This document shows, one piece after another, positions 902-38,289 of a stretch of DNA of 39,096 bases. Under the pieces are notes generated by a model, which worked only from the letters and a program-made list of their open reading frames with translations, was not told the origin of the DNA and made no database searches. This stretch comes from Escherichia phage T7. A program made the position numbers and the translations under genes. Numbering within the stretch: the stretch's first letter is position 1; every line of letters begins with the position of its first letter. Location of the stretch: the sequence record AY264777.1; one strand, written 5' to 3'.

Positions 902-1255
902 ATGGTTATGTCTAACATGACTTACAACAACGTTTTCGACCACGCTTACGAAATGCTGAAAGAAAACATCCGTTATGATGACATCCGTGACACTGATGAC
1001 CTGCACGATGCTATTCACATGGCTGCCGATAATGCAGTTCCGCACTACTACGCTGACATCTTTAGCGTAATGGCAAGTGAGGGCATTGACCTTGAGTTCG
1101 AAGACTCTGGTCTGATGCCTGACACCAAGGACGTAATCCGCATCCTGCAAGCACGTATCTATGAGCAATTAACGATTGACCTCTGGGAAGACGCAGAAGA
1201 CTTGCTCAATGAATACTTGGAGGAAGTCGAGAAGTACGAGGAGAATGAAGAGTAA
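902..1255 (+). CDS. ocr: Gene 0.3 Ocr, DNA-mimic anti-restriction protein (117 aa)
   Basis: ORF track 902..1255; acidic protein matching recalled T7 Ocr apart from 3 substitutions. Confidence 0.92.
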
Positions 1256-1338
1256 TGTCTACTACCAACGTGCAATACGGTCTGACCGCTCAAACTGTAC
1301 TTTTCTATAGCGACATGGTGCGCTGTGGCTTTAACTGA
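1255..1338 (+). pseudogene. 0.4: Gene 0.4 (FtsZ inhibitor) truncated by premature TGA after 27 codons
   Basis: ATG at 1255 overlapping the ocr stop; tga at 1336-1338; reading through would give 51 codons ending at tga 1408-1410, the wild-type length. Confidence 0.7.
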
Positions 1339-1412
1339 TCACTCGCAATGGCACAGCTCAAAGAACTGTACGAAAACAACAAGGCAATAGCTTTAGAATC
1401 TGCTGAGTGATA

Positions 1413-2329: not shown

Positions 2330-4981
2330 ATGAACACGATTAACATCGCTAAGAACGACTTCTCTGACATCGAACTGGCTGCTATCCCGTTCAACACTCT
2401 GGCTGACCATTACGGTGAGCGTTTAGCTCGCGAACAGTTGGCTCTTGAGCATGAGTCTTACGAGATGGGTGAAGCACGCTTTCGCAAGATGTTTGAGCGT
2501 CAACTTAAAGCTGGTGAGGTTGCGGATAACGCTGCCGCCAAGCCTCTCATCACTACCCTACTCCCTAAGATGATTGCACGCATCAACGACTGGTTTGAGG
2601 AAGTGAAAGCTAAGCGCGGCAAGCGCCCGACAGCTTTCCAGTTCCTGCAAGAAATCAAGCCGGAAGCCGTAGCGTACATCACCATTAAGACCACTCTGGC
2701 TTGCCTAACCAGTGCTGACAATACAACCGTTCAGGCTGCAGCAAGCGCAATCGGTCGGGCCATTGAGGACGAGGCTCGTTTCGGTCGTATCCGTGACCTT
2801 GAAGCTAAGCACTTCAAGAAAAACGTTGAGGAACAACTCAACAAGCGCGTAGGGCACGTCTACAAGAAAGCATTTATGCAAGTTGTCGAGGCTGACATGC
2901 TCTCTAAGGGTCTACTCGGTGGCGAGGCGTGGTCTTCGTGGCATAAGGAAGACTCTATTCATGTAGGAGTACGCTGCATCGAGATGCTCATTGAGTCAAC
3001 CGGAATGGTTAGCTTACATCGCCAAAATGCTGGCGTAGTAGGTCAAGACTCTGAGACTATCGAACTCGCACCTGAATACGCTGAGGCTATCGCAACCCGT
3101 GCAGGTGCGCTGGCTGGCATCTCTCCGATGTTCCAACCTTGCGTAGTTCTTCCTAAGCCGTGGACTGGCATTACTGGTGGTGGCTATTGGGCTAACGGTC
3201 GTCGTCCTCTGGCGCTGGTGCGTACTCACAGTAAGAAAGCACTGATGCGCTACGAAGACGTTTACATGCCTGAGGTGTACAAAGCGATTAACATTGCGCA
3301 AAACACCGCATGGAAAATCAACAAGAAAGTCCTAGCGGTCGCCAACGTAATCACCAAGTGGAAGCATTGTCCGGTCGAGAACATCCCTGCGATTGAGCGT
3401 GAAGAACTCCCGATGAAACCGGAAAACATCGACATGAATCCTGAGGCTCTCATCGCGTGGAAACGTGCTGCCGCTGCTGTGTACCGCAAGGACAAGGCTC
3501 GCAAGTCTCGCCGTATCAGCCTTGAGTTCATGCTTGAGCAAGCCAATAAGTTTGCTAATCATAAGGCCATTTGGTTCCCTTACAACATGGACTGGCGCGG
3601 TCGTGTTTACGCTGTGTCAATGTTCAACCCGCAAGGTAACGATATGACCAAAGGACTGCTTACGCTGGCAAAAGGTAAACCAATCGGTAAGGAAGGTTAC
3701 TACTGGCTGAAAATCCACGGTGCAAACTGTGCGGGTGTCGATAAGGTTCCGTTCCCTGAGCGCATCAAGTTCATTGAGGAAAACCACGAGAACATCATAG
3801 CTTGCGCTAAGTCTCCACTGGAGAACACTTGGTGGGCTGAGCAAGATTCTCCGTTCTGCTTCCTTGCGTTCTGCTTTGAGTACGCTGGGGTACAGCACCA
3901 CGGCCTGAGCTATAACTGCTCCCTTCCGCTGGCGTTTGACGGGTCTTGCTCTGGCATCCAGCACTCCTCCGCGATGCTCCGAGATGAGGTAGGTGGTCGC
4001 GCGGTTAACTTGCTTCCTAGTGAAACCGTTCACGACATCTACGGGATTGTTGCTAAGAAAGTCAACGAGATTCTACAAGCAGATGCAATCAATGGGACCG
4101 ATAACGAAGTAGTTACCGTGACCGATGAGAACACTGGTGAAATCTCTGAGAAAGTCAAGCTGGGCACTAAGGCACTGGCTGGTCAATGGCTGGCTTACAG
4201 TGTTACTCGCAGTGTGACTAAGCGTTCAGTCATGACGCTGGCTTACGGGTCCAAAGAGTTCGGCTTCCGTCAACAAGTGCTGGAAGATACCATTCAGCCA
4301 GCTATTGATTCCGGCAAGGGTCTGATGTTCACTCAGCCGAATCAGGCTGCTGGATACATGGCTAAGCTGATTTGGGAATCTGTGAGCGTGACGGTGGTAG
4401 CTGCGGTTGAAGCAATGAACTGGCTTAAGTCTGCTGCTAAGCTGCTGGCTGCTGAGGTCAAAGATAAGAAGACTGGAGAGATTCTTCGCAAGCGTTGCGC
4501 TGTGCATTGGGTAACTCCTGATGGTTTTCCTGTGTGGCAGGAATACAAGAAGCCTATTCAGACGCGCTTGAACCTGATGTTCCTCGGTCAGTTCCGCTTA
4601 CAGCCTACCATTAACACCAACAAAGATAGCGAGATTGATGCACACAAACAGGAGTCTGGTATCGCTCCTAACTTTGTACACAGCCAAGACGGTAGCCATC
4701 TTCGTAAGACTGTAGTGTGGGCACACGAGAAGTACGGAATCGAATCTTTTGCACTGATTCACGACTCCTTCGGTACCATTCCGGCTGACGCTGCGAACTT
4801 GTTCAAAGCAGTGCGCGAAACTATGGTTGACACATATGAGTCTTGTGATGTACTGGCTGATTTCTACGACCAGTTCGCTGACCAGTTGCACGAGTCTCAA
4901 TTGGACAAAATGCCAGCACTTCCGGCTAAAGGTAACTTGAACCTCCGTGACATCTTAGAGTCGGACTTCGCGTTCGCGTAA
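2330..4981 (+). CDS. 1: Gene 1, T7 RNA polymerase (883 aa)
   Basis: ORF 2330..4981; full-length single-subunit RNAP; specificity-loop region as recalled for wild type. Confidence 0.98.
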   Translation: MNTINIAKNDFSDIELAAIPFNTLADHYGERLAREQLALEHESYEMGEARFRKMFERQLKAGEVADNAAAKPLITTLLPKMIARINDWFEEVKAKRGKRPTAFQFLQEIKPEAVAYITIKTTLACLTSADNTTVQAAASAIGRAIEDEARFGRIRDLEAKHFKKNVEEQLNKRVGHVYKKAFMQVVEADMLSKGLLGGEAWSSWHKEDSIHVGVRCIEMLIESTGMVSLHRQNAGVVGQDSETIELAPEYAEAIATRAGALAGISPMFQPCVVLPKPWTGITGGGYWANGRRPLALVRTHSKKALMRYEDVYMPEVYKAINIAQNTAWKINKKVLAVANVITKWKHCPVENIPAIEREELPMKPENIDMNPEALIAWKRAAAAVYRKDKARKSRRISLEFMLEQANKFANHKAIWFPYNMDWRGRVYAVSMFNPQGNDMTKGLLTLAKGKPIGKEGYYWLKIHGANCAGVDKVPFPERIKFIEENHENIIACAKSPLENTWWAEQDSPFCFLAFCFEYAGVQHHGLSYNCSLPLAFDGSCSGIQHSSAMLRDEVGGRAVNLLPSETVHDIYGIVAKKVNEILQADAINGTDNEVVTVTDENTGEISEKVKLGTKALAGQWLAYSVTRSVTKRSVMTLAYGSKEFGFRQQVLEDTIQPAIDSGKGLMFTQPNQAAGYMAKLIWESVSVTVVAAVEAMNWLKSAAKLLAAEVKDKKTGEILRKRCAVHWVTPDGFPVWQEYKKPIQTRLNLMFLGQFRLQPTINTNKDSEIDAHKQESGIAPNFVHSQDGSHLRKTVVWAHEKYGIESFALIHDSFGTIPADAANLFKAVRETMVDTYESCDVLADFYDQFADQLHESQLDKMPALPAKGNLNLRDILESDFAFA

Positions 4982-10383: not shown

Positions 10384-12424
<2,041 letters not shown>

Positions 12425-12482
12425 CAGGATTCTTGATGACTTTCCAGACGACTACGAAAAGTTTCGCTGGAGAGTCCCATTC

Positions 12483-12505
12483 TAATACGACTCACTAAAG
12501 GAGAC
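12483..12505 (+). promoter_or_regulatory. T7 promoter phi4.3
   Basis: taatacgactcactaaaggagac. Confidence 0.85.
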
Positions 12506-19399: not shown

Positions 19400-21009
19400 T
19401 GGCTGAGAAACGAACAGGACTTGCGGAGGATGGCGCAAAGTCTGTCTATGAGCGTTTAAAGAACGACCGTGCTCCCTATGAGACACGCGCTCAGAATTGC
19501 GCTCAATATACCATCCCATCATTGTTCCCTAAGGACTCCGATAACGCCTCTACAGATTATCAAACTCCGTGGCAAGCCGTGGGCGCTCGTGGTCTGAACA
19601 ATCTAGCCTCTAAGCTCATGCTGGCTCTATTCCCTATGCAGACTTGGATGCGACTTACTATATCTGAATATGAAGCAAAGCAGTTACTGAGCGACCCCGA
19701 TGGACTCGCTAAGGTCGATGAGGGCCTCTCGATGGTAGAGCGTATCATCATGAACTACATTGAGTCTAACAGTTACCGCGTGACTCTCTTTGAGGCTCTC
19801 AAACAGTTAGTCGTAGCTGGTAACGTCCTGCTGTACCTACCGGAACCGGAAGGGTCAAACTATAATCCCATGAAGCTGTACCGATTGTCTTCTTATGTGG
19901 TCCAACGAGACGCATTCGGCAACGTTCTGCAAATGGTGACTCGTGACCAGATAGCTTTTGGTGCTCTCCCTGAGGACATCCGTAAGGCTGTAGAAGGTCA
20001 AGGTGGTGAGAAGAAAGCTGATGAGACAATCGACGTGTACACTCACATCTATCTGGATGAGGACTCAGGTGAATACCTCCGATACGAAGAGGTCGAGGAT
20101 ATGGAAGTCCAAGGCTCCGATGGGACTTATCCTAAAGAGGCTTGCCCATACATCCCGATTCGGATGGTCAGACTAGATGGTGAATCCTACGGTCGTTCGT
20201 ACATTGAGGAATACTTAGGTGACTTACGGTCCCTTGAAAATCTCCAAGAGGCTATCGTCAAGATGTCCATGATTAGCTCTAAGGTTATCGGCTTAGTGAA
20301 TCCTGCTGGTATCACCCAGCCACGCCGACTGACCAAAGCTCAGACTGGTGACTTCGTTACTGGTCGTCCAGAAGACATCTCGTTCCTCCAACTGGAGAAG
20401 CAAGCAGACTTTACTGTAGCTAAAGCCGTAAGTGACGCTATCGAGGCTCGCCTTTCGTTTGCCTTTATGTTGAACTCTGCGGTTCAGCGTACAGGTGAAC
20501 GTGTGACCGCCGAAGAGATTCGGTATGTAGCTTCTGAACTTGAAGATACTTTAGGTGGTGTCTACTCTATCCTTTCTCAAGAATTACAATTGCCTCTGGT
20601 ACGAGTGCTCTTGAAGCAACTACAAGCCACGCAACAGATTCCTGAGTTACCTAAGGAAGCCGTAGAGCCAACCATTAGTACAGGTCTGGAAGCAATTGGT
20701 CGAGGACAAGACCTTGATAAGCTGGAGCGGTGTGTCACTGCGTGGGCTGCACTGGCACCTATGCGAAACGACCCTGATATTAACCTTGCGATGATTAAGT
20801 TACGTATTGCCAACGCTATCGGTATTGACACTTCTGGTATTCTACTCACCGAAGAACAGAAGCAACAGAAGATGGCCCAACAGTCTATGCAAATGGGTAT
20901 GGATAATGGTGCTGCTGCGCTGGCTCAAGGTATGGCTGCACAAGCTACAGCTTCACCTGAGGCTATGGCTGCTGCCGCTGATTCCGTAGGTTTACAGCCG
21001 GGAATTTAA
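19399..21009 (+). CDS. 8: Gene 8, head-tail connector (portal) (536 aa)
   Basis: Internal ATG 19399 of ORF 19384..21009. Confidence 0.95.
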   Translation: MAEKRTGLAEDGAKSVYERLKNDRAPYETRAQNCAQYTIPSLFPKDSDNASTDYQTPWQAVGARGLNNLASKLMLALFPMQTWMRLTISEYEAKQLLSDPDGLAKVDEGLSMVERIIMNYIESNSYRVTLFEALKQLVVAGNVLLYLPEPEGSNYNPMKLYRLSSYVVQRDAFGNVLQMVTRDQIAFGALPEDIRKAVEGQGGEKKADETIDVYTHIYLDEDSGEYLRYEEVEDMEVQGSDGTYPKEACPYIPIRMVRLDGESYGRSYIEEYLGDLRSLENLQEAIVKMSMISSKVIGLVNPAGITQPRRLTKAQTGDFVTGRPEDISFLQLEKQADFTVAKAVSDAIEARLSFAFMLNSAVQRTGERVTAEEIRYVASELEDTLGGVYSILSQELQLPLVRVLLKQLQATQQIPELPKEAVEPTISTGLEAIGRGQDLDKLERCVTAWAALAPMRNDPDINLAMIKLRIANAIGIDTSGILLTEEQKQQKMAQQSMQMGMDNGAAALAQGMAAQATASPEAMAAAADSVGLQPGI

Positions 21010-21029
21010 TACGACTCACTATAGAGAGA
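21007..21029 (+). promoter_or_regulatory. T7 class III promoter phi9 (variant at +2)
   Basis: taatacgactcactatagagaga. Confidence 0.85.
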
Positions 21030-21108
21030 CCTCATCTTTGAAATGAGCGATGACAAGAGGTTGGAGTCCTCGGTCTTCCTGTAGTTCAACTTTAAGGAGA
21101 CAATAATA

Positions 21109-22032
21109 ATGGCTGAATCTAATGCAGACGTATATGCATCTTTTGGCGTGAACTCCGCTGTGATGTCTGGTGGTTCCGTTGAGGAACATGAGCAGAACAT
21201 GCTGGCTCTTGATGTTGCTGCCCGTGATGGCGATGATGCAATCGAGTTAGCGTCAGACGAAGTGGAAACAGAACGTGACCTGTATGACAACTCTGACCCA
21301 TTCGGTCAAGAGGATGACGAAGGCCGCATTCAGGTTCGTATCGGTGATGGCTTTGAGCCGACCGATGTGGACACTGGAGAAGAAGGCGTTGAGGGCACCG
21401 AAGGTTCCGAAGAGTTTACCTCACTGGGCGAGACTCCAGAAGAACTGGTAGCTGCCTCTGAGCAACTTGGTGAGCACGAAGAGGGCTTCCAAGAGATGAT
21501 TAACATTGCTGCTGAGCGTGGCATGAGTGTCGAGACCATTGAGGCTATCCAGCGTGAGTACGAGGAGAACGAAGAGTTGTCCGCCGAGTCCTACGCTAAG
21601 CTGGCTGAAATTGGCTACACGAAGGCTTTCATTGACTCGTATATCCGTGGTCAAGAAGCTTTGGTGGAGCAGTACGTAAACAGTGTCATTGAGTACGCTG
21701 GTGGTCGTGAACGTTTTGATGCACTGTATAACCACCTTGAGACGCACAACCCTGAGGCTGCACAGTCGCTGGATAATGCGTTGACCAATCGTGACTTAGC
21801 GACCGTTAAGGCTATCATCAACTTGGCTGGTGAGTCTCGCGCTAAGGCGTTCGGTCGTAAGCCAACTCGTAGTGTGACTAATCGTGCTATTCCGGCTAAA
21901 CCTCAGGCTACCAAGCATGAAGGCTTTGCGGACCGTAGCGAGATGATTAAAGCTATGAGTGACCCTCGGTATCGCACAGATGCCAACTATCGTCGTCAAG
22001 TCGAACAGAAAGTAATCGATTCGAACTTCTGA
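21109..22032 (+). CDS. 9: Gene 9, capsid assembly (scaffolding) protein (307 aa)
   Basis: ORF 21109..22032; highly acidic. Confidence 0.95.
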   Translation: MAESNADVYASFGVNSAVMSGGSVEEHEQNMLALDVAARDGDDAIELASDEVETERDLYDNSDPFGQEDDEGRIQVRIGDGFEPTDVDTGEEGVEGTEGSEEFTSLGETPEELVAASEQLGEHEEGFQEMINIAAERGMSVETIEAIQREYEENEELSAESYAKLAEIGYTKAFIDSYIRGQEALVEQYVNSVIEYAGGRERFDALYNHLETHNPEAAQSLDNALTNRDLATVKAIINLAGESRAKAFGRKPTRSVTNRAIPAKPQATKHEGFADRSEMIKAMSDPRYRTDANYRRQVEQKVIDSNF

Positions 22033-22045
22033 TAGACTTCGAAAT

Positions 22046-22068
22046 TAATACGATTCATTATAGGGAGA
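22046..22068 (+). promoter_or_regulatory. T7 class III promoter phi10 (two substitutions, -9 and -5)
   Basis: taatacgattcattatagggaga followed by the gene 10 leader ccacaacggtttccctctagaaataattttgtttaactttaagaaggagatatacat. Confidence 0.9.
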
Positions 22069-22125
22069 CCACAACGGTTTCCCTCTAGAAATAATTTTGT
22101 TTAACTTTAAGAAGGAGATATACAT

Positions 22126-23163
22126 ATGGCTAGCATGACTGGTGGACAGCAAATGGGTACTAACCAAGGTAAAGGTGTAGTTGCTGCTGGAGATAAACTG
22201 GCGTTGTTCTTGAAGGTATTTGGCGGTGAAGTCCTGACTGCGTTCGCTCGTACCTCCGTGACCACTTCTCGCCACATGGTACGTTCCATCTCCAGCGGTA
22301 AATCCGCTCAGTTCCCTGTTCTGGGTCGCACTCAGGCAGCGTATCTGGCTCCGGGCGAGAACCTCGACGATAAACGTAAGGACATCAAACACACCGAGAA
22401 GGTAATCATCATTGACGGTCTCTTGACGGCTGACGTTCTGATTTATGATATTGAGGACGCGATGAACCACTACGACGTTCGCTCTGAGTATACCTCTCAG
22501 TTGGGTGAATCTCTGGCGATGGCTGCGGATGGTGCGGTTCTGGCTGAGATTGCCGATCTGTGTAACGTGGAAAGCAAATATAATGAGAACATCGAGGGCT
22601 TAGGTACTGCTACCGTAATTGAGACCACTCAAAACAAGGCCGCACTTACCGACCAAATTGCGCTGGGTAAGGAGATTATTGCGGCTCTGACTAAGGCTCG
22701 TGCGGTTCTGACCAAGAACTATGTTCCGGCTGCTGACCGTGTGTTCTACTGTGACCCAGATAGCTACTCTGCGATTCTGGCAGCACTGATGCCGAACGCA
22801 GCAAACTACGCTGCTCTGATTGACCCTGAGAAGGGTTCTATTCGCAACGTTATGGGCTTTGAGGTTGTAGAAGTTCCGCACCTCACCGCTGGTGGTGCTG
22901 GTACCGCTCGTGAGGGCACTACTGGTCAGAAGCACGTCTTCCCTGCCAATAAAGGTGAGGGTAATGTCAAGGTTGCTAAGGACAACGTTATCGGTCTGTT
23001 CATGCACCGCTCTGCGGTAGGTACTGTTAAGCTGCGTGACTTGGCTCTGGAGCGCGCTCGCCGTGCTAACTTCCAAGCGGACCAGATTATCGCTAAGTAC
23101 GCAATGGGCCACGGTGGTCTTCGCCCAGAAGCTGCTGGTGCAGTGGTTTTCAAAGTGGAGTAA
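22126..23163 (+). CDS. 10: Gene 10A, major capsid protein (345 aa)
   Basis: ORF 22126..23163; MASMTGGQQMG...VVFKVE. Confidence 0.98.
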   Translation: MASMTGGQQMGTNQGKGVVAAGDKLALFLKVFGGEVLTAFARTSVTTSRHMVRSISSGKSAQFPVLGRTQAAYLAPGENLDDKRKDIKHTEKVIIIDGLLTADVLIYDIEDAMNHYDVRSEYTSQLGESLAMAADGAVLAEIADLCNVESKYNENIEGLGTATVIETTQNKAALTDQIALGKEIIAALTKARAVLTKNYVPAADRVFYCDPDSYSAILAALMPNAANYAALIDPEKGSIRNVMGFEVVEVPHLTAGGAGTAREGTTGQKHVFPANKGEGNVKVAKDNVIGLFMHRSAVGTVKLRDLALERARRANFQADQIIAKYAMGHGGLRPEAAGAVVFKVE

Positions 23164-23321
23164 TGCTGGGGGTGGCCTCAACGGTCGCTGCTAGTCCCGA
23201 AGAGGCGAGTGTTACTTCAACAGAAGAAACCTTAACGCCAGCACAGAAGGCCGCACGCACCCGCGCTGCTAACAAAGCCCGAAAGGAAACTGAGTTGGCT
23301 GCTGCCACCGCTGAGCAATAA
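22126..23321 (+). CDS. 10: Gene 10B, minor capsid protein via -1 ribosomal frameshift near the 3' end of 10A
   Basis: Slippery tract ggttttc near 23147-23153; -1 frame open to taa 23319-23321. Confidence 0.55.
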
Positions 23322-23328
23322 CTAGCAT

Positions 23329-23369
23329 AATCCCTTGGGGCCTCTAAACGGGTCTTGAGGGGTTTTTTG
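23329..23369 (+). terminator. Tphi, T7 RNA polymerase terminator (stem variant)
   Basis: aatcccttggggcctctaaacgggtcttgaggggttttttg; GC-rich hairpin plus U-tract. Confidence 0.9.
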
Positions 23370-23386
23370 CTGAAAGGAGAAACTAT

Positions 23387-23977
23387 ATGCGCTCATACGA
23401 TATGAACGTTGAGACTGCCGCTGAGTTATCAGCTGTGAACGACATTCTGGCGTCTATCGGTGAACCTCCGGTATCAACGCTGGAAGGTGACGCTAACGCA
23501 GATGCAGCGAACGCTCGGCGTATTCTCAACAAGATTAACCGACAGATTCAATCTCGTGGATGGACGTTCAACATTGAGGAAGGCATAACGCTACTACCTG
23601 ATGTTTACTCCAACCTGATTGTATACAGTGACGACTATTTATCCCTAATGTCTACTTCCGGTCAATCCATCTACGTTAACCGAGGTGGCTATGTGTATGA
23701 CCGAACGAGTCAATCAGACCGCTTTGACTCTGGTATTACTGTGAACATTATTCGTCTCCGCGACTACGATGAGATGCCTGAGTGCTTCCGTTACTGGATT
23801 GTCACCAAGGCTTCCCGTCAGTTCAACAACCGATTCTTTGGGGCACCGGAAGTAGAGGGTGTACTCCAAGAAGAGGAAAATGAGGCTAGACGTCTCTGCA
23901 TGGAGTATGAGATGGACTACGGTGGGTACAATATGCTGGATGGAGATGCGTTCACTTCTGGTCTACTGACTCGCTAA
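23387..23977 (+). CDS. 11: Gene 11, tail tubular protein A (196 aa)
   Basis: ORF track 23387..23977. Confidence 0.95.
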
Positions 23978-24000
23978 CATTAATAAATAAGGAGGCTCTA

Positions 24001-26385
24001 ATGGCACTCATTAGCCAATCAATCAAGAACTTGAAGGGTGGTATCAGCCAACAGCCTGACATCCTTCGTTATCCAGACCAAGGGTCACGCCAAGTTAACG
24101 GTTGGTCTTCGGAGACCGAGGGCCTCCAAAAGCGTCCACCTCTTGTTTTCTTAAATACACTTGGAGACAACGGTGCGTTAGGTCAAGCTCCGTACATCCA
24201 CCTGATTAACCGAGATGAGCACGAACAGTATTACGCTGTGTTCACTGGTAGCGGAATCCGAGTGTTCGACCTTTCTGGTAACGAGAAGCAAGTTAGGTAT
24301 CCTAACGGTTCCAACTACATCAAGACCGCTAATCCACGTAACGACCTGCGAATGGTTACTGTAGCAGACTATACGTTCATCGTTAACCGTAACGTTGTTG
24401 CACAGAAGAACACAAAGTCTGTCAACTTACCGAATTACAACTCTAATCAAGACGGATTGATTAACGTTCGTGGTGGTCAGTATGGTAGGGAACTAATTGT
24501 ACACATTAACGGTAAAGACGTTGCGAAGTATAAGATACCAGATGGTAGTCAACCTGAACACGTAAACAATACGGATGCCCAATGGTTAGCTGAAGAGTTA
24601 GCCAAGCAGATGCGCACTAATTTGTCTGATTGGACTGTAAATGTAGGGCAAGGATTCATCCATGTGATCGCACCTAGTGGTCAACAGATTGACTCCTTCA
24701 CGACTAAAGATGGCTACGCAGACCAGTTGATTAACTCTGTGACCCACTACGCTCAGTCGTTCTCTAAGCTGCCACCTAATGCTCCTAACGGCTACATGGT
24801 GAAAATCGTAGGGGACGCCTCTAAGTCTGCCGACCAGTATTACGTTCGGTATGACGCTGAGCGGAAAGTTTGGACTGAGACTTTAGGTTGGAACACTGAG
24901 GACCAAGTTCTATGGGAAACCATGCCACACGCTCTTGTGCGAGCCGCTGACGGTAATTTCGACTTCAAGTGGCTTGAGTGGTCTCCTAAGTCTTGTGGTG
25001 ACGTTGACACCAACCCTTGGCCTTCTTTTGTTGGTTCAAGTATTAACGATGTGTTCTTTTTCCGTAACCGCTTAGGATTCCTTAGTGGGGAGAACATCAT
25101 ATTGAGTCGTACAGCCAAATACTTCAACTTCTACCCTGCGTCCATTGCGAACCTTAGTGATGACGACCCTATAGACGTAGCTGTGAGTACCAACCGAATA
25201 GCAATCCTTAAGTACGCCGTTCCGTTCTCAGAAGAGTTACTCATCTGGTCCGATGAAGCACAATTCGTCCTGACTGCCTCGGGTACTCTCACATCTAAGT
25301 CGGTTGAGTTGAACCTAACGACCCAGTTTGACGTACAAGACCGAGCGAGACCTTTTGGGATTGGGCGTAATGTCTACTTTGCTAGTTCGAGGTCCAGCTT
25401 CACGTCCATCCACAGGTACTACGCTGTGCAGGATGTCAGTTCCGTTAAAAATGCTGAGGACATTACATCACACGTTCCTAACTACATCCCTAATGGTGTG
25501 TTCAGTATTTGCGGAAGTGGTACGGAAAACTTCTGTTCGGTACTATCTCACGGGGACCCTAGTAAAATCTTCATGTACAAATTCCTGTACCTGAACGAAG
25601 AGTTAAGGCAACAGTCGTGGTCTCATTGGGACTTTGGGGAAAACGTACAGGTTCTAGCTTGTCAGAGTATCAGCTCAGATATGTATGTGATTCTTCGCAA
25701 TGAGTTCAATACGTTTCTAGCTAGAATCTCTTTCACTAAGAACGCCATTGACTTACAGGGAGAACCCTATCGTGCCTTTATGGACATGAAGATTCGATAC
25801 ACGATTCCTAGTGGAACATACAACGATGACACATTCACTACCTCTATTCATATTCCAACAATTTATGGTGCAAACTTCGGGAGGGGCAAAATCACTGTAT
25901 TGGAGCCTGATGGTAAGATAACCGTGTTTGAGCAACCTACGGCTGAGTGGAATAGCGACCCTTGGCTGAGACTCAGCGGTAATTTGGAGGGACGCATGGT
26001 GTACATTGGGTTCAACATTAACTTCGTATATGAGTTCTCTAAGTTCCTCATCAAGCAGACTGCCGACGACGGATCTACCTCCACGGAAGACATTGGGCGC
26101 TTACAGTTACGTCGAGCGTGGGTTAACTACGAGAACTCTGGTACGTTTGACATTTATGTTGAGAACCAATCGTCTAACTGGAAGTACACAATGGCTGGTG
26201 CCCGATTAGGCTCTAACACTCTGAGGGCTGGGAGACTGAACTTAGGGACCGGACAATATCGATTCCCTGTGGTTGGTAACGCCAAGTTCAACACTGTATA
26301 CATCTTGTCAGATGAGACTACCCCTCTGAACATCATTGGGTGTGGCTGGGAAGGTAACTACTTACGGAGAAGTTCCGGTATTTAA
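24001..26385 (+). CDS. 12: Gene 12, tail tubular protein B (794 aa)
   Basis: ORF track 24001..26385. Confidence 0.95.
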   Translation: MALISQSIKNLKGGISQQPDILRYPDQGSRQVNGWSSETEGLQKRPPLVFLNTLGDNGALGQAPYIHLINRDEHEQYYAVFTGSGIRVFDLSGNEKQVRYPNGSNYIKTANPRNDLRMVTVADYTFIVNRNVVAQKNTKSVNLPNYNSNQDGLINVRGGQYGRELIVHINGKDVAKYKIPDGSQPEHVNNTDAQWLAEELAKQMRTNLSDWTVNVGQGFIHVIAPSGQQIDSFTTKDGYADQLINSVTHYAQSFSKLPPNAPNGYMVKIVGDASKSADQYYVRYDAERKVWTETLGWNTEDQVLWETMPHALVRAADGNFDFKWLEWSPKSCGDVDTNPWPSFVGSSINDVFFFRNRLGFLSGENIILSRTAKYFNFYPASIANLSDDDPIDVAVSTNRIAILKYAVPFSEELLIWSDEAQFVLTASGTLTSKSVELNLTTQFDVQDRARPFGIGRNVYFASSRSSFTSIHRYYAVQDVSSVKNAEDITSHVPNYIPNGVFSICGSGTENFCSVLSHGDPSKIFMYKFLYLNEELRQQSWSHWDFGENVQVLACQSISSDMYVILRNEFNTFLARISFTKNAIDLQGEPYRAFMDMKIRYTIPSGTYNDDTFTTSIHIPTIYGANFGRGKITVLEPDGKITVFEQPTAEWNSDPWLRLSGNLEGRMVYIGFNINFVYEFSKFLIKQTADDGSTSTEDIGRLQLRRAWVNYENSGTFDIYVENQSSNWKYTMAGARLGSNTLRAGRLNLGTGQYRFPVVGNAKFNTVYILSDETTPLNIIGCGWEGNYLRRSSGI

Positions 26386-36528: not shown

Positions 36529-38289
36529 GTGTCTACTCAATCCAATCGTAATGCGCTCGTAGTGGCGCAACTGAAAGGAGACTTCGTGGCGTTCCTATTC
36601 GTCTTATGGAAGGCGCTAAACCTACCGGTGCCCACTAAGTGTCAGATTGACATGGCTAAGGTGCTGGCGAATGGAGACAACAAGAAGTTCATCTTACAGG
36701 CTTTCCGTGGTATCGGTAAGTCGTTCATCACATGTGCGTTCGTTGTGTGGTCTTTATGGAGAGACCCTCAGTTGAAGATACTTATCGTATCAGCCTCTAA
36801 GGAGCGTGCAGACGCTAACTCCATCTTTATTAAGAACATCATTGACCTGCTGCCATTCCTATCTGAGTTAAAGCCAAGACCCGGACAGCGTGACTCGGTA
36901 ATTAGCTTTGATGTAGGCCCAGCCAATCCTGACCACTCTCCTAGTGTGAAATCAGTAGGTATTACTGGTCAGTTAACTGGTAGCCGTGCTGACATTATCA
37001 TTGCGGATGACGTTGAGATTCCGTCTAACAGTGCAACTATGGGTGCCCGTGAGAAGCTATGGACTCTGGTTCAGGAGTTCGCTGCATTACTTAAACCGCT
37101 GTCTTCCTCTCGCGTTATCTACCTTGGTACACCTCAGACAGAGATGACTCTCTATAAGGAACTTGAGGATAACCGTGGGTACACAACCATTATTTGGCCT
37201 GCTCTGTACCCAAGGACACGTGAAGAGAACCTCTATTACTCACAGCGTCTTGCTCCTATGTTACGCGCTGAGTACGATGAGAACCCTGAGGCACTTGCTG
37301 GGACTCCAACAGACCCAGTGCGCTTTGACCGTGATGACCTGCGCGAGCGTGAGTTGGAATACGGTAAGGCTGGCTTTACGCTACAGTTCATGCTTAACCC
37401 TAACCTTAGTGATGCCGAGAAGTACCCGCTGAGGCTTCGTGACGCTATCGTAGCGGCCTTAGACTTAGAGAAGGCCCCAATGCATTACCAGTGGCTTCCG
37501 AACCGTCAGAACATCATTGAGGACCTTCCTAACGTTGGCCTTAAGGGTGATGACCTGCATACATACCACGATTGTTCCAACAACTCAGGTCAGTACCAAC
37601 AGAAGATTCTGGTCATTGACCCTAGTGGTCGCGGTAAGGACGAAACAGGTTACGCTGTGCTGTACACACTGAACGGTTACATCTACCTTATGGAAGCTGG
37701 AGGTTTCCGTGATGGCTACTCCGATAAGACCCTTGAGTTACTCGCTAAGAAGGCAAAGCAATGGGGAGTCCAGACGGTTGTCTACGAGAGTAACTTCGGT
37801 GACGGTATGTTCGGTAAGGTATTCAGTCCTATTCTTCTTAAACACCACAACTGTGCGATGGAAGAGATTCGTGCCCGTGGTATGAAAGAGATGCGTATTT
37901 GCGATACTCTTGAGCCAGTCATGCAGACTCACCGCCTTGTAATTCGTGATGAGGTCATTAGGGCCGACTACCAGTCCGCTCGTGACGTAGACGGTAAGCA
38001 TGACGTTAAGTACTCGTTGTTCTACCAGATGACCCGTATCACTCGTGAGAAAGGCGCTCTGGCTCATGATGACCGATTGGATGCCCTTGCGTTAGGCATT
38101 GAGTATCTTCGTGAGTCCATGCAGTTGGATTCCGTTAAGGTCGAGGGTGAAGTACTTGCCGACTTCCTTGAGGAACACATGATGCGTCCTACGGTTGCTG
38201 CTACGCATATCATTGAGATGTCTGTGGGAGGAGTTGATGTGTACTCTGAGGACGATGAGGGTTACGGTACGTCTTTCATTGAGTGGTGA
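36529..38289 (+). CDS. 19: Gene 19, terminase large subunit (586 aa), apparent GTG start
   Basis: ORF track 36529..38289. Confidence 0.95.

What the first reader, a model, noticed from the sequence alone, without database searches (positions are those of the whole stretch)
22126..23321. Four missense changes in the major capsid protein and two in the 10B extension
Against the gp10A sequence I recall with confidence, the window has T95I (22408-22410 atc), G144D, V178I and A194V, each a single G:C->A:T change. In the 10B frameshift tail it has cacagAaggcc and ggaaActgag where I recall cacagGaggcc and ggaaGctgag. The -1 frameshift slippery site ggttttc is retained.
Basis: partly seen in the sequence, partly recalled or inferred. 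Interest (0 to 1): 0.45.

Follow-up and report, generated by a model that had tools for sequence, protein, structure and literature searches.

The report
Mutagen-induced substitutions in T7 capsid gene
The six amino-acid changes in the phage T7 capsid gene are real, but they are just this gene's average share of about 300 chemically induced mutations in an already published laboratory T7 line, so the finding is ordinary.

Summary
Observation confirmed in every detail. Against wild-type T7 (V01146/AY264774), gene 10A (22126-23163) carries T95I, G144D, V178I and A194V. The 10B frameshift tail carries E375K (23247) and A389T (23289). The GGTTTTC slippery site is intact. All changes are single G:C>A:T transitions.

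The window is a whole T7 genome with 304 substitutions versus wild type, 94% of them G:C>A:T, plus an 819-bp deletion in gene 0.7. Its gp10A protein is already deposited as AAP34105.1/AAP34157.1 on a 39,096-bp contig, the window's length. It is almost certainly AY264777, parent of isolate P82 (AY264778), from the mutagen-plus-bottleneck T7 lines of Bull et al. 2003.

Gene 10 is not unusual: 10 substitutions against 9.3 expected, 4 missense against 4.7, 4 synonymous against 4.0. All four missense changes sit at positions that vary among natural T7-like capsids. None changed in P82. An independent line, K, carries a similar load.

Best reading: tolerated, near-neutral mutagenesis load. More consequential for capsid output may be the adjacent phi10 promoter double mutation (-9 and -5 C>T). 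Already known; low interest.

The parts
22126..23163 (+). Gene 10A, the major capsid protein (345 aa, HK97 fold). It has 8 G:C>A:T substitutions: T95I (22409), L100L (22423), G144D (22556), Q169Q (22632), V178I (22657), A194V (22706), I239I (22842), G290G (22995).
   Evidence: ORF. Codon-level comparison with V01146. The region is 100% identical to AY264778 gene 10A. The PDB T7 gp10A sequences differ at only these four residues.
23145..23151 (+). GGTTTTC, the -1 ribosomal frameshift slippery site that produces gp10B. It is unchanged from wild type.
   Evidence: identical to V01146 across 23131-23165. The join coordinates are annotated in V01146.
23148..23321 (+). The 10B-specific -1 frame extension (residues 342-398, stop at 23319-23321), with E375K (23247 G>A) and A389T (23289 G>A).
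   Evidence: an intact 398-aa product. In independent line K this tail carries R386* and A394V in a viable phage.
22046..22068 (+). Phi10 class III promoter upstream of gene 10. It reads TAATACGAtTCAtTATAGGGAGA, with -9 C>T (22054) and -5 C>T (22058).
   Evidence: It is the only one of the 17 T7 promoters in the window with a change upstream of +1. PMC5937735 reports that changes at -9 to -7 lower activity to below 5%, and that changes at -5 also strongly reduce it.
23322..23370 (+). Tphi transcription terminator downstream of gene 10. One stem C>T at 23331 turns a G-C pair into G-U.
   Evidence: RNA folding gives the same hairpin, with the free energy going from -24.8 to -22.2 kcal/mol.

Best explanation
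The six amino-acid changes, together with four silent changes, are gene 10's proportional share of a genome-wide load of mutations induced by an alkylating mutagen. The window is a complete genome of a laboratory T7 line, isolate 'P' of Bull et al. 2003 and almost certainly GenBank AY264777.

Mechanism, marked by how well each step is supported:
1. Propagation with a G:C>A:T mutagen through repeated single-plaque bottlenecks fixed mutations nearly at random. The spectrum and the even density are shown here. The identity of the mutagen, nitrosoguanidine, comes from the literature and my own knowledge.
2. The only filter was that each plaque had to stay viable. Missense changes therefore survived preferentially at tolerant positions of the capsid protein. 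This is shown: all four sit at naturally variable columns.
3. The capsid still assembles, and the -1 frameshift still makes 10B. The intact reading frames and slippery site are shown. That the changes are close to neutral for fitness is inferred from their persistence, unchanged, through the fitness-recovery line P82.

The two 10B changes lie in a C-terminal tail described as a surface-exposed, unstructured extension. It is replaceable, and at least its C-terminal part is dispensable.
For: Provenance:
- Region 21900-23500 is 100% identical to AY264778 (T7 isolate P82) and 99.1% identical to the other T7 records listed.
- The whole window differs from P82 by 26 substitutions, and from wild type by 304 substitutions plus an 819-bp deletion.
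- AY264774 to AY264778 are wild type, K, K115, a record absent from the collection, and P82.
- The exact gp10A sequence is deposited as AAP34105.1 and AAP34157.1 (UniRef100_Q6WY24). The longest contig is 39,096 bp, the window's length.
- The source paper (Bull et al. 2003, J Mol Evol 57:241) is cited for fixing random mutations through extreme bottlenecks.
- T7 lines were propagated with mutagen on a defined phylogeny.
- G:C>A:T changes dominate after nitrosoguanidine or hydroxylamine treatment of T7.

Spectrum: 286 of 304 substitutions are G:C>A:T.

No enrichment in gene 10:
- 10 substitutions against 9.3 expected.
- 4 missense against 4.7 expected, and 4 synonymous against 4.0.
- Genome-wide there are 143 missense, 121 synonymous and 1 nonsense change in the uninterrupted genes tallied. 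dN/dS on G:C>A:T sites is 0.65.

Tolerance of the four positions:
- In natural T7-like capsids position 95 is T/N/S/H/V/I, 144 is G/K/A/S/T/N/I, 178 is V/A/T/E/I and 194 is A/R/G/K/S.
- None is among the invariant or at-least-90%-conserved columns.
- The probability that all 4 fall in variable columns by chance is 0.029.
- With line K added, 9 of 10 missense changes fall in variable columns (P = 0.002).

Independent replicate: line K carries six gp10A changes (V31I, T167I, A172T, A179V, A194T, T260I), plus R386* and A394V in the 10B tail.

No selection to undo them: P82 is identical to the window over 20400-25000, whereas it reverted or altered three RNA polymerase changes.

10B tail: it is described as an unstructured surface extension that phage-display vectors replace (PMC8923235).
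Against: - No fitness, assembly or stability measurement is available here, so 'near-neutral' is an inference.
- G144D puts a charge at the C-terminal end of the predicted spine helix (helix 120-146), and D was not seen there in about 130 natural relatives. It could be mildly deleterious.
- Persistence in P82 shows only that no reversion or local compensation was fixed in that recovery line. Compensation could lie in another gene.
- Genome-wide dN/dS of 0.65 shows that selection did act, so the load is not purely random.
- The original paper could not be read. The identification of the window as isolate 'P', and the details of the passage regime, rest on accession order, contig length and my own recollection.
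Confidence: 0.9

Rival explanations
1. One or more of the capsid substitutions is functionally important. It could be deleterious: G144D at the end of the spine helix, or T95I in the E-loop stretch, might weaken assembly, maturation or stability and contribute to line P's fitness loss. Or it could be compensatory: co-adapted with the scaffold gp9 changes S82F, P105S and R270H, or with lowered gene 10 transcription from the crippled phi10 promoter.
For: - D144 and V194 were not seen in natural relatives.
- Codon 194 was hit in both independent lines, and 178/179 are adjacent hits.
- 3 of 4 missense changes in P and 4 of 6 in K fall within residues 144-194, against 13% expected.
- Scaffold residue R270 was hit in both lines.
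- The phi10 promoter carries -9 and -5 changes.
- In the K to K115 recovery, gene 10 did change: R49H, A172T to P, and S365P.
Against: - The clustering is explained by tolerance. Residues 144-194 form the most variable segment in natural homologues: 73% variable columns against 38% elsewhere. The boundaries were also chosen after seeing the data.
- The chance that two lines share a codon is roughly 0.1 (my estimate).
- Gene 10's missense count is slightly below the genome-wide expectation.
- No gene 10, gene 9 or promoter change was fixed during the P to P82 recovery.
- Bottleneck fixation does not favour beneficial alleles.
Confidence: 0.08
2. The differences are natural strain polymorphism or sequencing errors, not induced mutations.
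For: None was found. V01146 and the laboratory wild type AY264774 do differ at three minor positions: a 1-bp indel and a GT/TG swap.
Against: - All ten changes are shared exactly with the independently deposited descendant P82.
- Only AY264778 matches the region at 100%; the other T7 records listed carry the wild-type alleles at 99.1% identity.
- A 94% G:C>A:T spectrum fits neither natural divergence nor random sequencing error.
Confidence: 0.02

Closest known systems
Wild-type bacteriophage T7 gene 10 (V01146 / NC_001604; gp10A structures 2XVR, 3IZG, 3J7V-X)
   Same: - Same gene, length and reading frames.
- Same translation leader, slippery site GGTTTTC and 10B stop codon.
- 341 of 345 gp10A residues and 392 of 398 gp10B residues are identical.
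   Different: - 10 G:C>A:T substitutions in the coding region: T95I, G144D, V178I, A194V, E375K, A389T and 4 silent changes.
- Two changes in the phi10 promoter.
- One change in the Tphi stem.
T7 isolate P82 (AY264778), the fitness-recovery descendant of the same mutagenised line
   Same: Identical over window 20400-25000, which includes gene 10, phi10 and Tphi. The gp10A protein is identical (AAP34157.1).
   Different: Elsewhere P82 differs by 26 substitutions, a 12-bp deletion in gene 7.3 and two 1-bp deletions. It reverted RNA polymerase F546S and Q568H.
T7 isolate K (AY264775), an independent mutagenised, bottlenecked line
   Same: - Same kind of load: 415 substitutions against wild type.
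- Six gp10A missense changes, mostly in residues 167-194.
- Codon 194 is also hit (A194T).
- The 10B tail is also mutated.
   Different: The specific substitutions differ. Only 22 substitutions genome-wide are shared with the window, and none of them is in gene 10. K has a nonsense codon in the 10B tail (R386*) and an intact phi10 promoter.

Membership tests
Bacteriophage T7 major capsid protein gp10A (HK97-fold capsid protein of Teseptimavirus) | Near-identical full-length sequence to T7 gp10A | tested here: met
   phmmer against the PDB gives E = 3e-221 over residues 1-345 of 345 for 2xvr/3izg/3j7v-x, with only 4 mismatches. The DNA is 99.1% identical to V01146.
Bacteriophage T7 major capsid protein gp10A (HK97-fold capsid protein of Teseptimavirus) | HK97-type fold | tested here: met
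   The AlphaFold2 model built with a 65-sequence alignment (pTM 0.63; the A-domain is confident, the N-arm and E-loop are not) matches the T7 capsid 3j7w/3j7v at E = 1e-31 to 1e-25 with TM about 0.52. It also matches other HK97-fold capsids and, weakly (E > 0.03), encapsulins.
Bacteriophage T7 major capsid protein gp10A (HK97-fold capsid protein of Teseptimavirus) | Genomic position between scaffold gene 9 and tail gene 11, flanked by the phi10 promoter and the Tphi terminator | tested here: met
   The ORF order is 9, 10A, 11. It is colinear with the annotated V01146 and AY264778 records.
Gene 10 programmed -1 frameshift (10A/10B) | Slippery heptamer GGTTTTC at codons 341-342, with an open -1 frame to a 398-aa product | tested here: met
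   The site is intact at 23145-23151, and the -1 frame is open to the stop at 23319-23321.
Gene 10 programmed -1 frameshift (10A/10B) | Frameshifting actually occurs at about the wild-type rate (roughly 5-10% of capsid protein) | not testable with these tools
   This needs protein analysis of virions. The Tphi region has one stem change. A distal 3' stimulator near Tphi has been reported, but I recall that from memory and did not verify it here.
Mutagenised, bottlenecked T7 lines of Bull et al. 2003 (GenBank AY264775-AY264778) | Sequence identity with a deposited member of the series | tested here: met
   - The window differs from P82 (AY264778) by 26 substitutions, against 304 from wild type.
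- The exact gp10A is AAP34105.1 on a 39,096-bp contig.
- AY264777 itself is not in the collection, so full-length identity could not be checked directly.
Mutagenised, bottlenecked T7 lines of Bull et al. 2003 (GenBank AY264775-AY264778) | Hundreds of substitutions with an alkylating-mutagen spectrum (G:C>A:T) | tested here: met
   There are 304 substitutions: 159 C>T plus 127 G>A, or 94%.

The most novel reading that the evidence does not exclude
The capsid changes are not passive load. At least one of them (G144D at the end of the spine helix, or T95I in the E-loop stretch) alters procapsid assembly or maturation and is co-adapted with other changes in this genome. The candidates are the scaffold gp9 changes (S82F, P105S, R270H) and the reduced gene 10 transcription expected from the phi10 promoter changes at -9 and -5. 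On this reading the window records a viable alternative solution for T7 capsid production.
Probability: 0.07. Interest if true: 0.3.

Novelty: already known. Interest (0 to 1): 0.08.

Why it matters
It matters little beyond bookkeeping. The variant capsid protein is already in GenBank and UniProt (AAP34105.1 / Q6WY24) and comes from a published mutation-accumulation experiment.

The modest value is as a natural tolerance map. Two independent mutagenised lines show which gp10A positions accept substitutions in a viable phage: mainly residues 144-194, which is also the segment most variable in nature. They also show that the 10B tail tolerates charge changes and, in line K, truncation. This could inform the engineering of T7 display or capsid variants.

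The neighbouring phi10 promoter double mutation is the more thought-provoking feature. It suggests the phage remains viable with its strongest capsid promoter probably disabled.

Tried and rejected
1. A single-sequence AlphaFold2 model of the window's gp10A was useless (pLDDT 33). The alignment-based model is good only for the A-domain, with pLDDT below 50 for residues 1-77, 86-124 and 297-332. T95 could therefore be placed only by HK97 fold order.
2. Mapping onto actual capsid coordinates (3J7X and related entries), to tell surface from inter-subunit interface, was not possible.
3. Three papers are not in the library: Bull et al. 2003, Springman et al. 2010 and Guo et al. 2014. The passage regime and the gp10A domain boundaries could not be quoted from them.
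4. I tested whether gene 10 is enriched for mutations, or for missense changes, relative to the genome. It is not.
5. I tested whether the T7 RNA polymerase carries specificity-loop changes (residues 739-770) that might rescue the mutated phi10 promoter. There are none among its nine substitutions.
6. The exact window RNA polymerase sequence is not in the protein collection, so that route to confirming AY264777 failed. The gp10A route succeeded.
7. The clustering of missense changes in residues 144-194 looked significant. I reject it as evidence of adaptation: the boundaries were chosen post hoc, and the segment is the naturally variable one.

Full report
**What is in the sequence**

The interval 22126-23321 is T7 gene 10. 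Gene 10A is an intact 345-codon ORF at 22126-23163, and the 10B extension lies in the -1 frame and ends at 23321. I compared the window base by base with wild-type T7 (V01146.1) and with the laboratory wild type AY264774.1 over 20400-25000. There are 28 differences, and every one is G>A or C>T.

Eight of them fall in 10A. Four are missense:
- T95I (22409)
- G144D (22556)
- V178I (22657)
- A194V (22706)

- L100 (22423)
- Q169 (22632)
- I239 (22842)
- G290 (22995)

Translating 10B with the annotated -1 join gives an intact 398-aa protein with E375K (23247) and A389T (23289). The slippery heptamer GGTTTTC at 23145-23151 is unchanged. The sequences of the solved T7 capsid structures (2xvr, 3izg, 3j7v, 3j7w, 3j7x) have the wild-type residue at all four positions.

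**What the window is**

Region 21900-23500 is 100% identical to a single record, AY264778.1 ('T7 isolate P82'). The other T7 records listed match at 99.1%.

A whole-genome alignment gives these distances:
- Window against wild type: 304 substitutions.
- Window against P82: 26 substitutions.
- Window against the independent isolates K and K115 (AY264775/6): about 660 substitutions.

Relative to V01146, the window also lacks 819 bp inside gene 0.7 and the first 23 terminal bases.

The GenBank series runs AY264774 (wild type), AY264775 (K), AY264776 (K115), AY264777 (not in the collection) and AY264778 (P82). The exact gp10A protein of the window is deposited as AAP34105.1 and AAP34157.1 (UniRef100_Q6WY24). 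AAP34157.1 is P82's gene 10A. AAP34105.1 falls in the accession gap between K115 and P82, and the longest contig recorded for the sequence is 39,096 bp, which is the window's length. The window is therefore almost certainly AY264777, the parent 'P' of P82.

[quoted passage not shown] Later papers cite it for fixing random mutations by forcing populations through extreme bottlenecks. The lines descend from T7 propagated with mutagen on an imposed phylogeny (Hillis et al. 1992, described). I could not read the 2003 paper itself. The letter names and the use of nitrosoguanidine are from my own knowledge. They are consistent with the statement that G:C>A:T changes dominate after nitrosoguanidine mutagenesis of T7.

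**Is gene 10 special?**

No. Of the 304 substitutions, 159 are C>T and 127 are G>A, which is 94%.

| Measure | Observed | Expected from the genome-wide rate |
|---|---|---|
| Substitutions in the 1196-bp gene 10 interval | 10 | 9.3 (Poisson P(>=10) = 0.45) |
| Missense in 10A | 4 | 4.7 |
| Synonymous in 10A | 4 | 4.0 |

These figures come; the 10A expectations use rates per G:C>A:T site. Across the uninterrupted genes I tallied there are 143 missense, 121 synonymous and 1 nonsense change, and dN/dS on mutable sites is 0.65. There was thus a mild viability filter, not free drift. Gene 10 carries an exactly average load.

**Where the changes sit and what they probably do**

I collected natural relatives in two ways. 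One set is 72 distinct capsid sequences from viral contigs at 77-99% identity. The other is 64 proteins from the large protein search at 76-94% identity.

Residues seen at the four positions:
- Position 95: T, N, S, H, V, I
- Position 144: G, K, A, S, T, N, I
- Position 178: V, A, T, E, I
- Position 194: A, R, G, K, S

I95 and I178 occur naturally. D144 and V194 were not seen, but both positions accept polar or charged residues. None of the four is an invariant or a >=90%-conserved column, although 57% of columns are invariant in the first set. The chance that four G:C>A:T missense mutations all land in variable columns is 0.029.

The independent line K carries V31I, T167I, A172T, A179V, A194T and T260I. 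Five of these six are also at variable columns. Pooling both lines, 9 of 10 missense changes fall in variable columns (P = 0.002).

Three of four missense changes in P, and four of six in K, fall within residues 144-194. That is also the most variable segment in nature, with 73% variable columns against 38% elsewhere. I read this as tolerance, not adaptation. The boundaries of that segment were also chosen after seeing the data.

An AlphaFold2 model built with the 65-sequence alignment has pTM 0.63. It matches the T7 capsid entries 3j7w/3j7v at E = 1e-31 to 1e-25. Its placements are:
- G144 lies at the C-terminal end of the long helix 120-146, which is the spine helix of the HK97 fold.
- V178 and A194 lie at the two ends of a confidently predicted A-domain helix, 177-197 (pLDDT about 88-93).
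- T95 lies in the low-confidence stretch between the N-arm and the spine helix. By HK97 fold order this is the E-loop region, and that placement is an inference.

The 10B tail is described in the literature as an unstructured surface extension. It makes up about 5-10% of capsid protein, and display vectors replace it (PMC8923235). Line K carries a stop codon in it (R386*) and is viable. E375K and A389T are therefore very unlikely to matter.

**Evidence from the descendant**

P82, the recovery line, is identical to the window across 20400-25000. No capsid, scaffold, promoter or terminator change was reverted or locally compensated. By contrast, P82 reverted RNA polymerase F546S and Q568H and changed D351N to D351Y. 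This suggests, but does not prove, that the gene 10 substitutions were not a major part of the fitness deficit.

**Surroundings**

The changes around gene 10 are arguably more interesting than those within it.

- **Phi10 promoter.** It reads TAATACGAtTCAtTATAGGGAGA (22046-22068), with C>T at -9 and at -5. It is the only one of the 17 T7 promoters in this genome changed upstream of +1. PMC5937735, citing Imburgio et al. 2000, reports that substitutions at -9 to -7 reduce activity below 5% and that -5 changes also strongly reduce it. None of the nine RNA polymerase substitutions lies in the specificity loop, residues 739-770. Phi10 is therefore probably nearly inactive, and gene 10 mRNA would have to come from read-through from upstream promoters. 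That last step is an inference.
- **Phi9 promoter.** It has a +2 G>A change.
- **Tphi terminator.** It has one stem C>T (23331) that converts a G-C pair to G-U. The fold is unchanged, and the free energy goes from -24.8 to -22.2 kcal/mol.
- **Gene 11 Shine-Dalgarno.** It goes from AGGAGG to AGGAGA (23380).

All of these persist in P82.

**Verdict**

It is the expected, average share of a mutagen-induced, bottleneck-fixed mutation load in an already published and deposited laboratory T7 genome.

The best explanation is tolerated, near-neutral substitutions at naturally variable capsid positions and in a dispensable tail (confidence about 0.9). A functional role for one or more of them, deleterious or compensatory, is not excluded (about 0.08). 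Natural polymorphism or sequencing error is effectively ruled out.

Novelty: already known. Interest: low.

Noticed in passing
window 22046-22068 (changes at 22054 and 22058): The phi10 promoter carries C>T at -9 and at -5. It is the only one of the 17 T7 promoters in the window altered upstream of +1. Published variant data say either change alone severely reduces T7 RNA polymerase activity. Both changes persist in recovery line P82, and the RNA polymerase has no specificity-loop change.
   Followed up: partly
window 21025: The phi9 promoter has a +2 G>A change (GGGAGA to GAGAGA) in the initially transcribed sequence. This is the next promoter upstream, from which gene 10 read-through transcripts would come.
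   Followed up: no
window 23331 (Tphi, 23322-23370): A C>T change in the Tphi terminator stem turns a G-C pair into G-U. The predicted hairpin is unchanged, and the free energy goes from -24.8 to -22.2 kcal/mol.
   Followed up: yes
window 23380: A G>A change in the gene 11 Shine-Dalgarno sequence (AGGAGG to AGGAGA), 7 nt upstream of the gene 11 ATG at 23387.
   Followed up: no
window 2146|2147: An 819-bp deletion inside gene 0.7, the protein kinase and host shut-off gene (reference 2169-2987). The window also lacks the first 23 bases of the reference left end.
   Followed up: partly
window 1255-1410 and 12147-12485: Nonsense mutations in two non-essential genes: W28* in gene 0.4 and W59* in gene 4.2. 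The P82 record annotates these two as 'similar to gene 0.4' and 'similar to gene 4.2'.
   Followed up: partly
window 21916-21918 (gene 9 codon 270): Scaffold protein residue R270 is hit in both independent mutagenised lines: R270H here and R270C in line K. Capsid codon 194 shows the same pattern (A194V here, A194T in K), and codons 178 and 179 are adjacent hits. This may be chance, or it may reflect mutable and tolerant codons.
   Followed up: partly
window 36529-38289 (gene 19): The large terminase gene has 1 missense change against 11 synonymous. This is the strongest sign of purifying selection among the large genes. Gene 8 (portal) has only 3 substitutions in 1611 bp.
   Followed up: no
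window 2330-4981 (gene 1): T7 RNA polymerase carries nine missense changes: V137A, P274L, D351N, D366N, T375I, M490I, F546S, Q568H and G624S. Recovery line P82 reverted F546S and Q568H and changed D351N to D351Y, which points to the polymerase as a main target of fitness recovery.
   Followed up: partly
whole window: 22 substitutions are shared between this line and the independent line K. Several of them are not G:C>A:T changes (for example reference 15094 G>T, 30719 C>A, 36164 T>C). This fits a shared early history or a shared ancestral stock.
   Followed up: no
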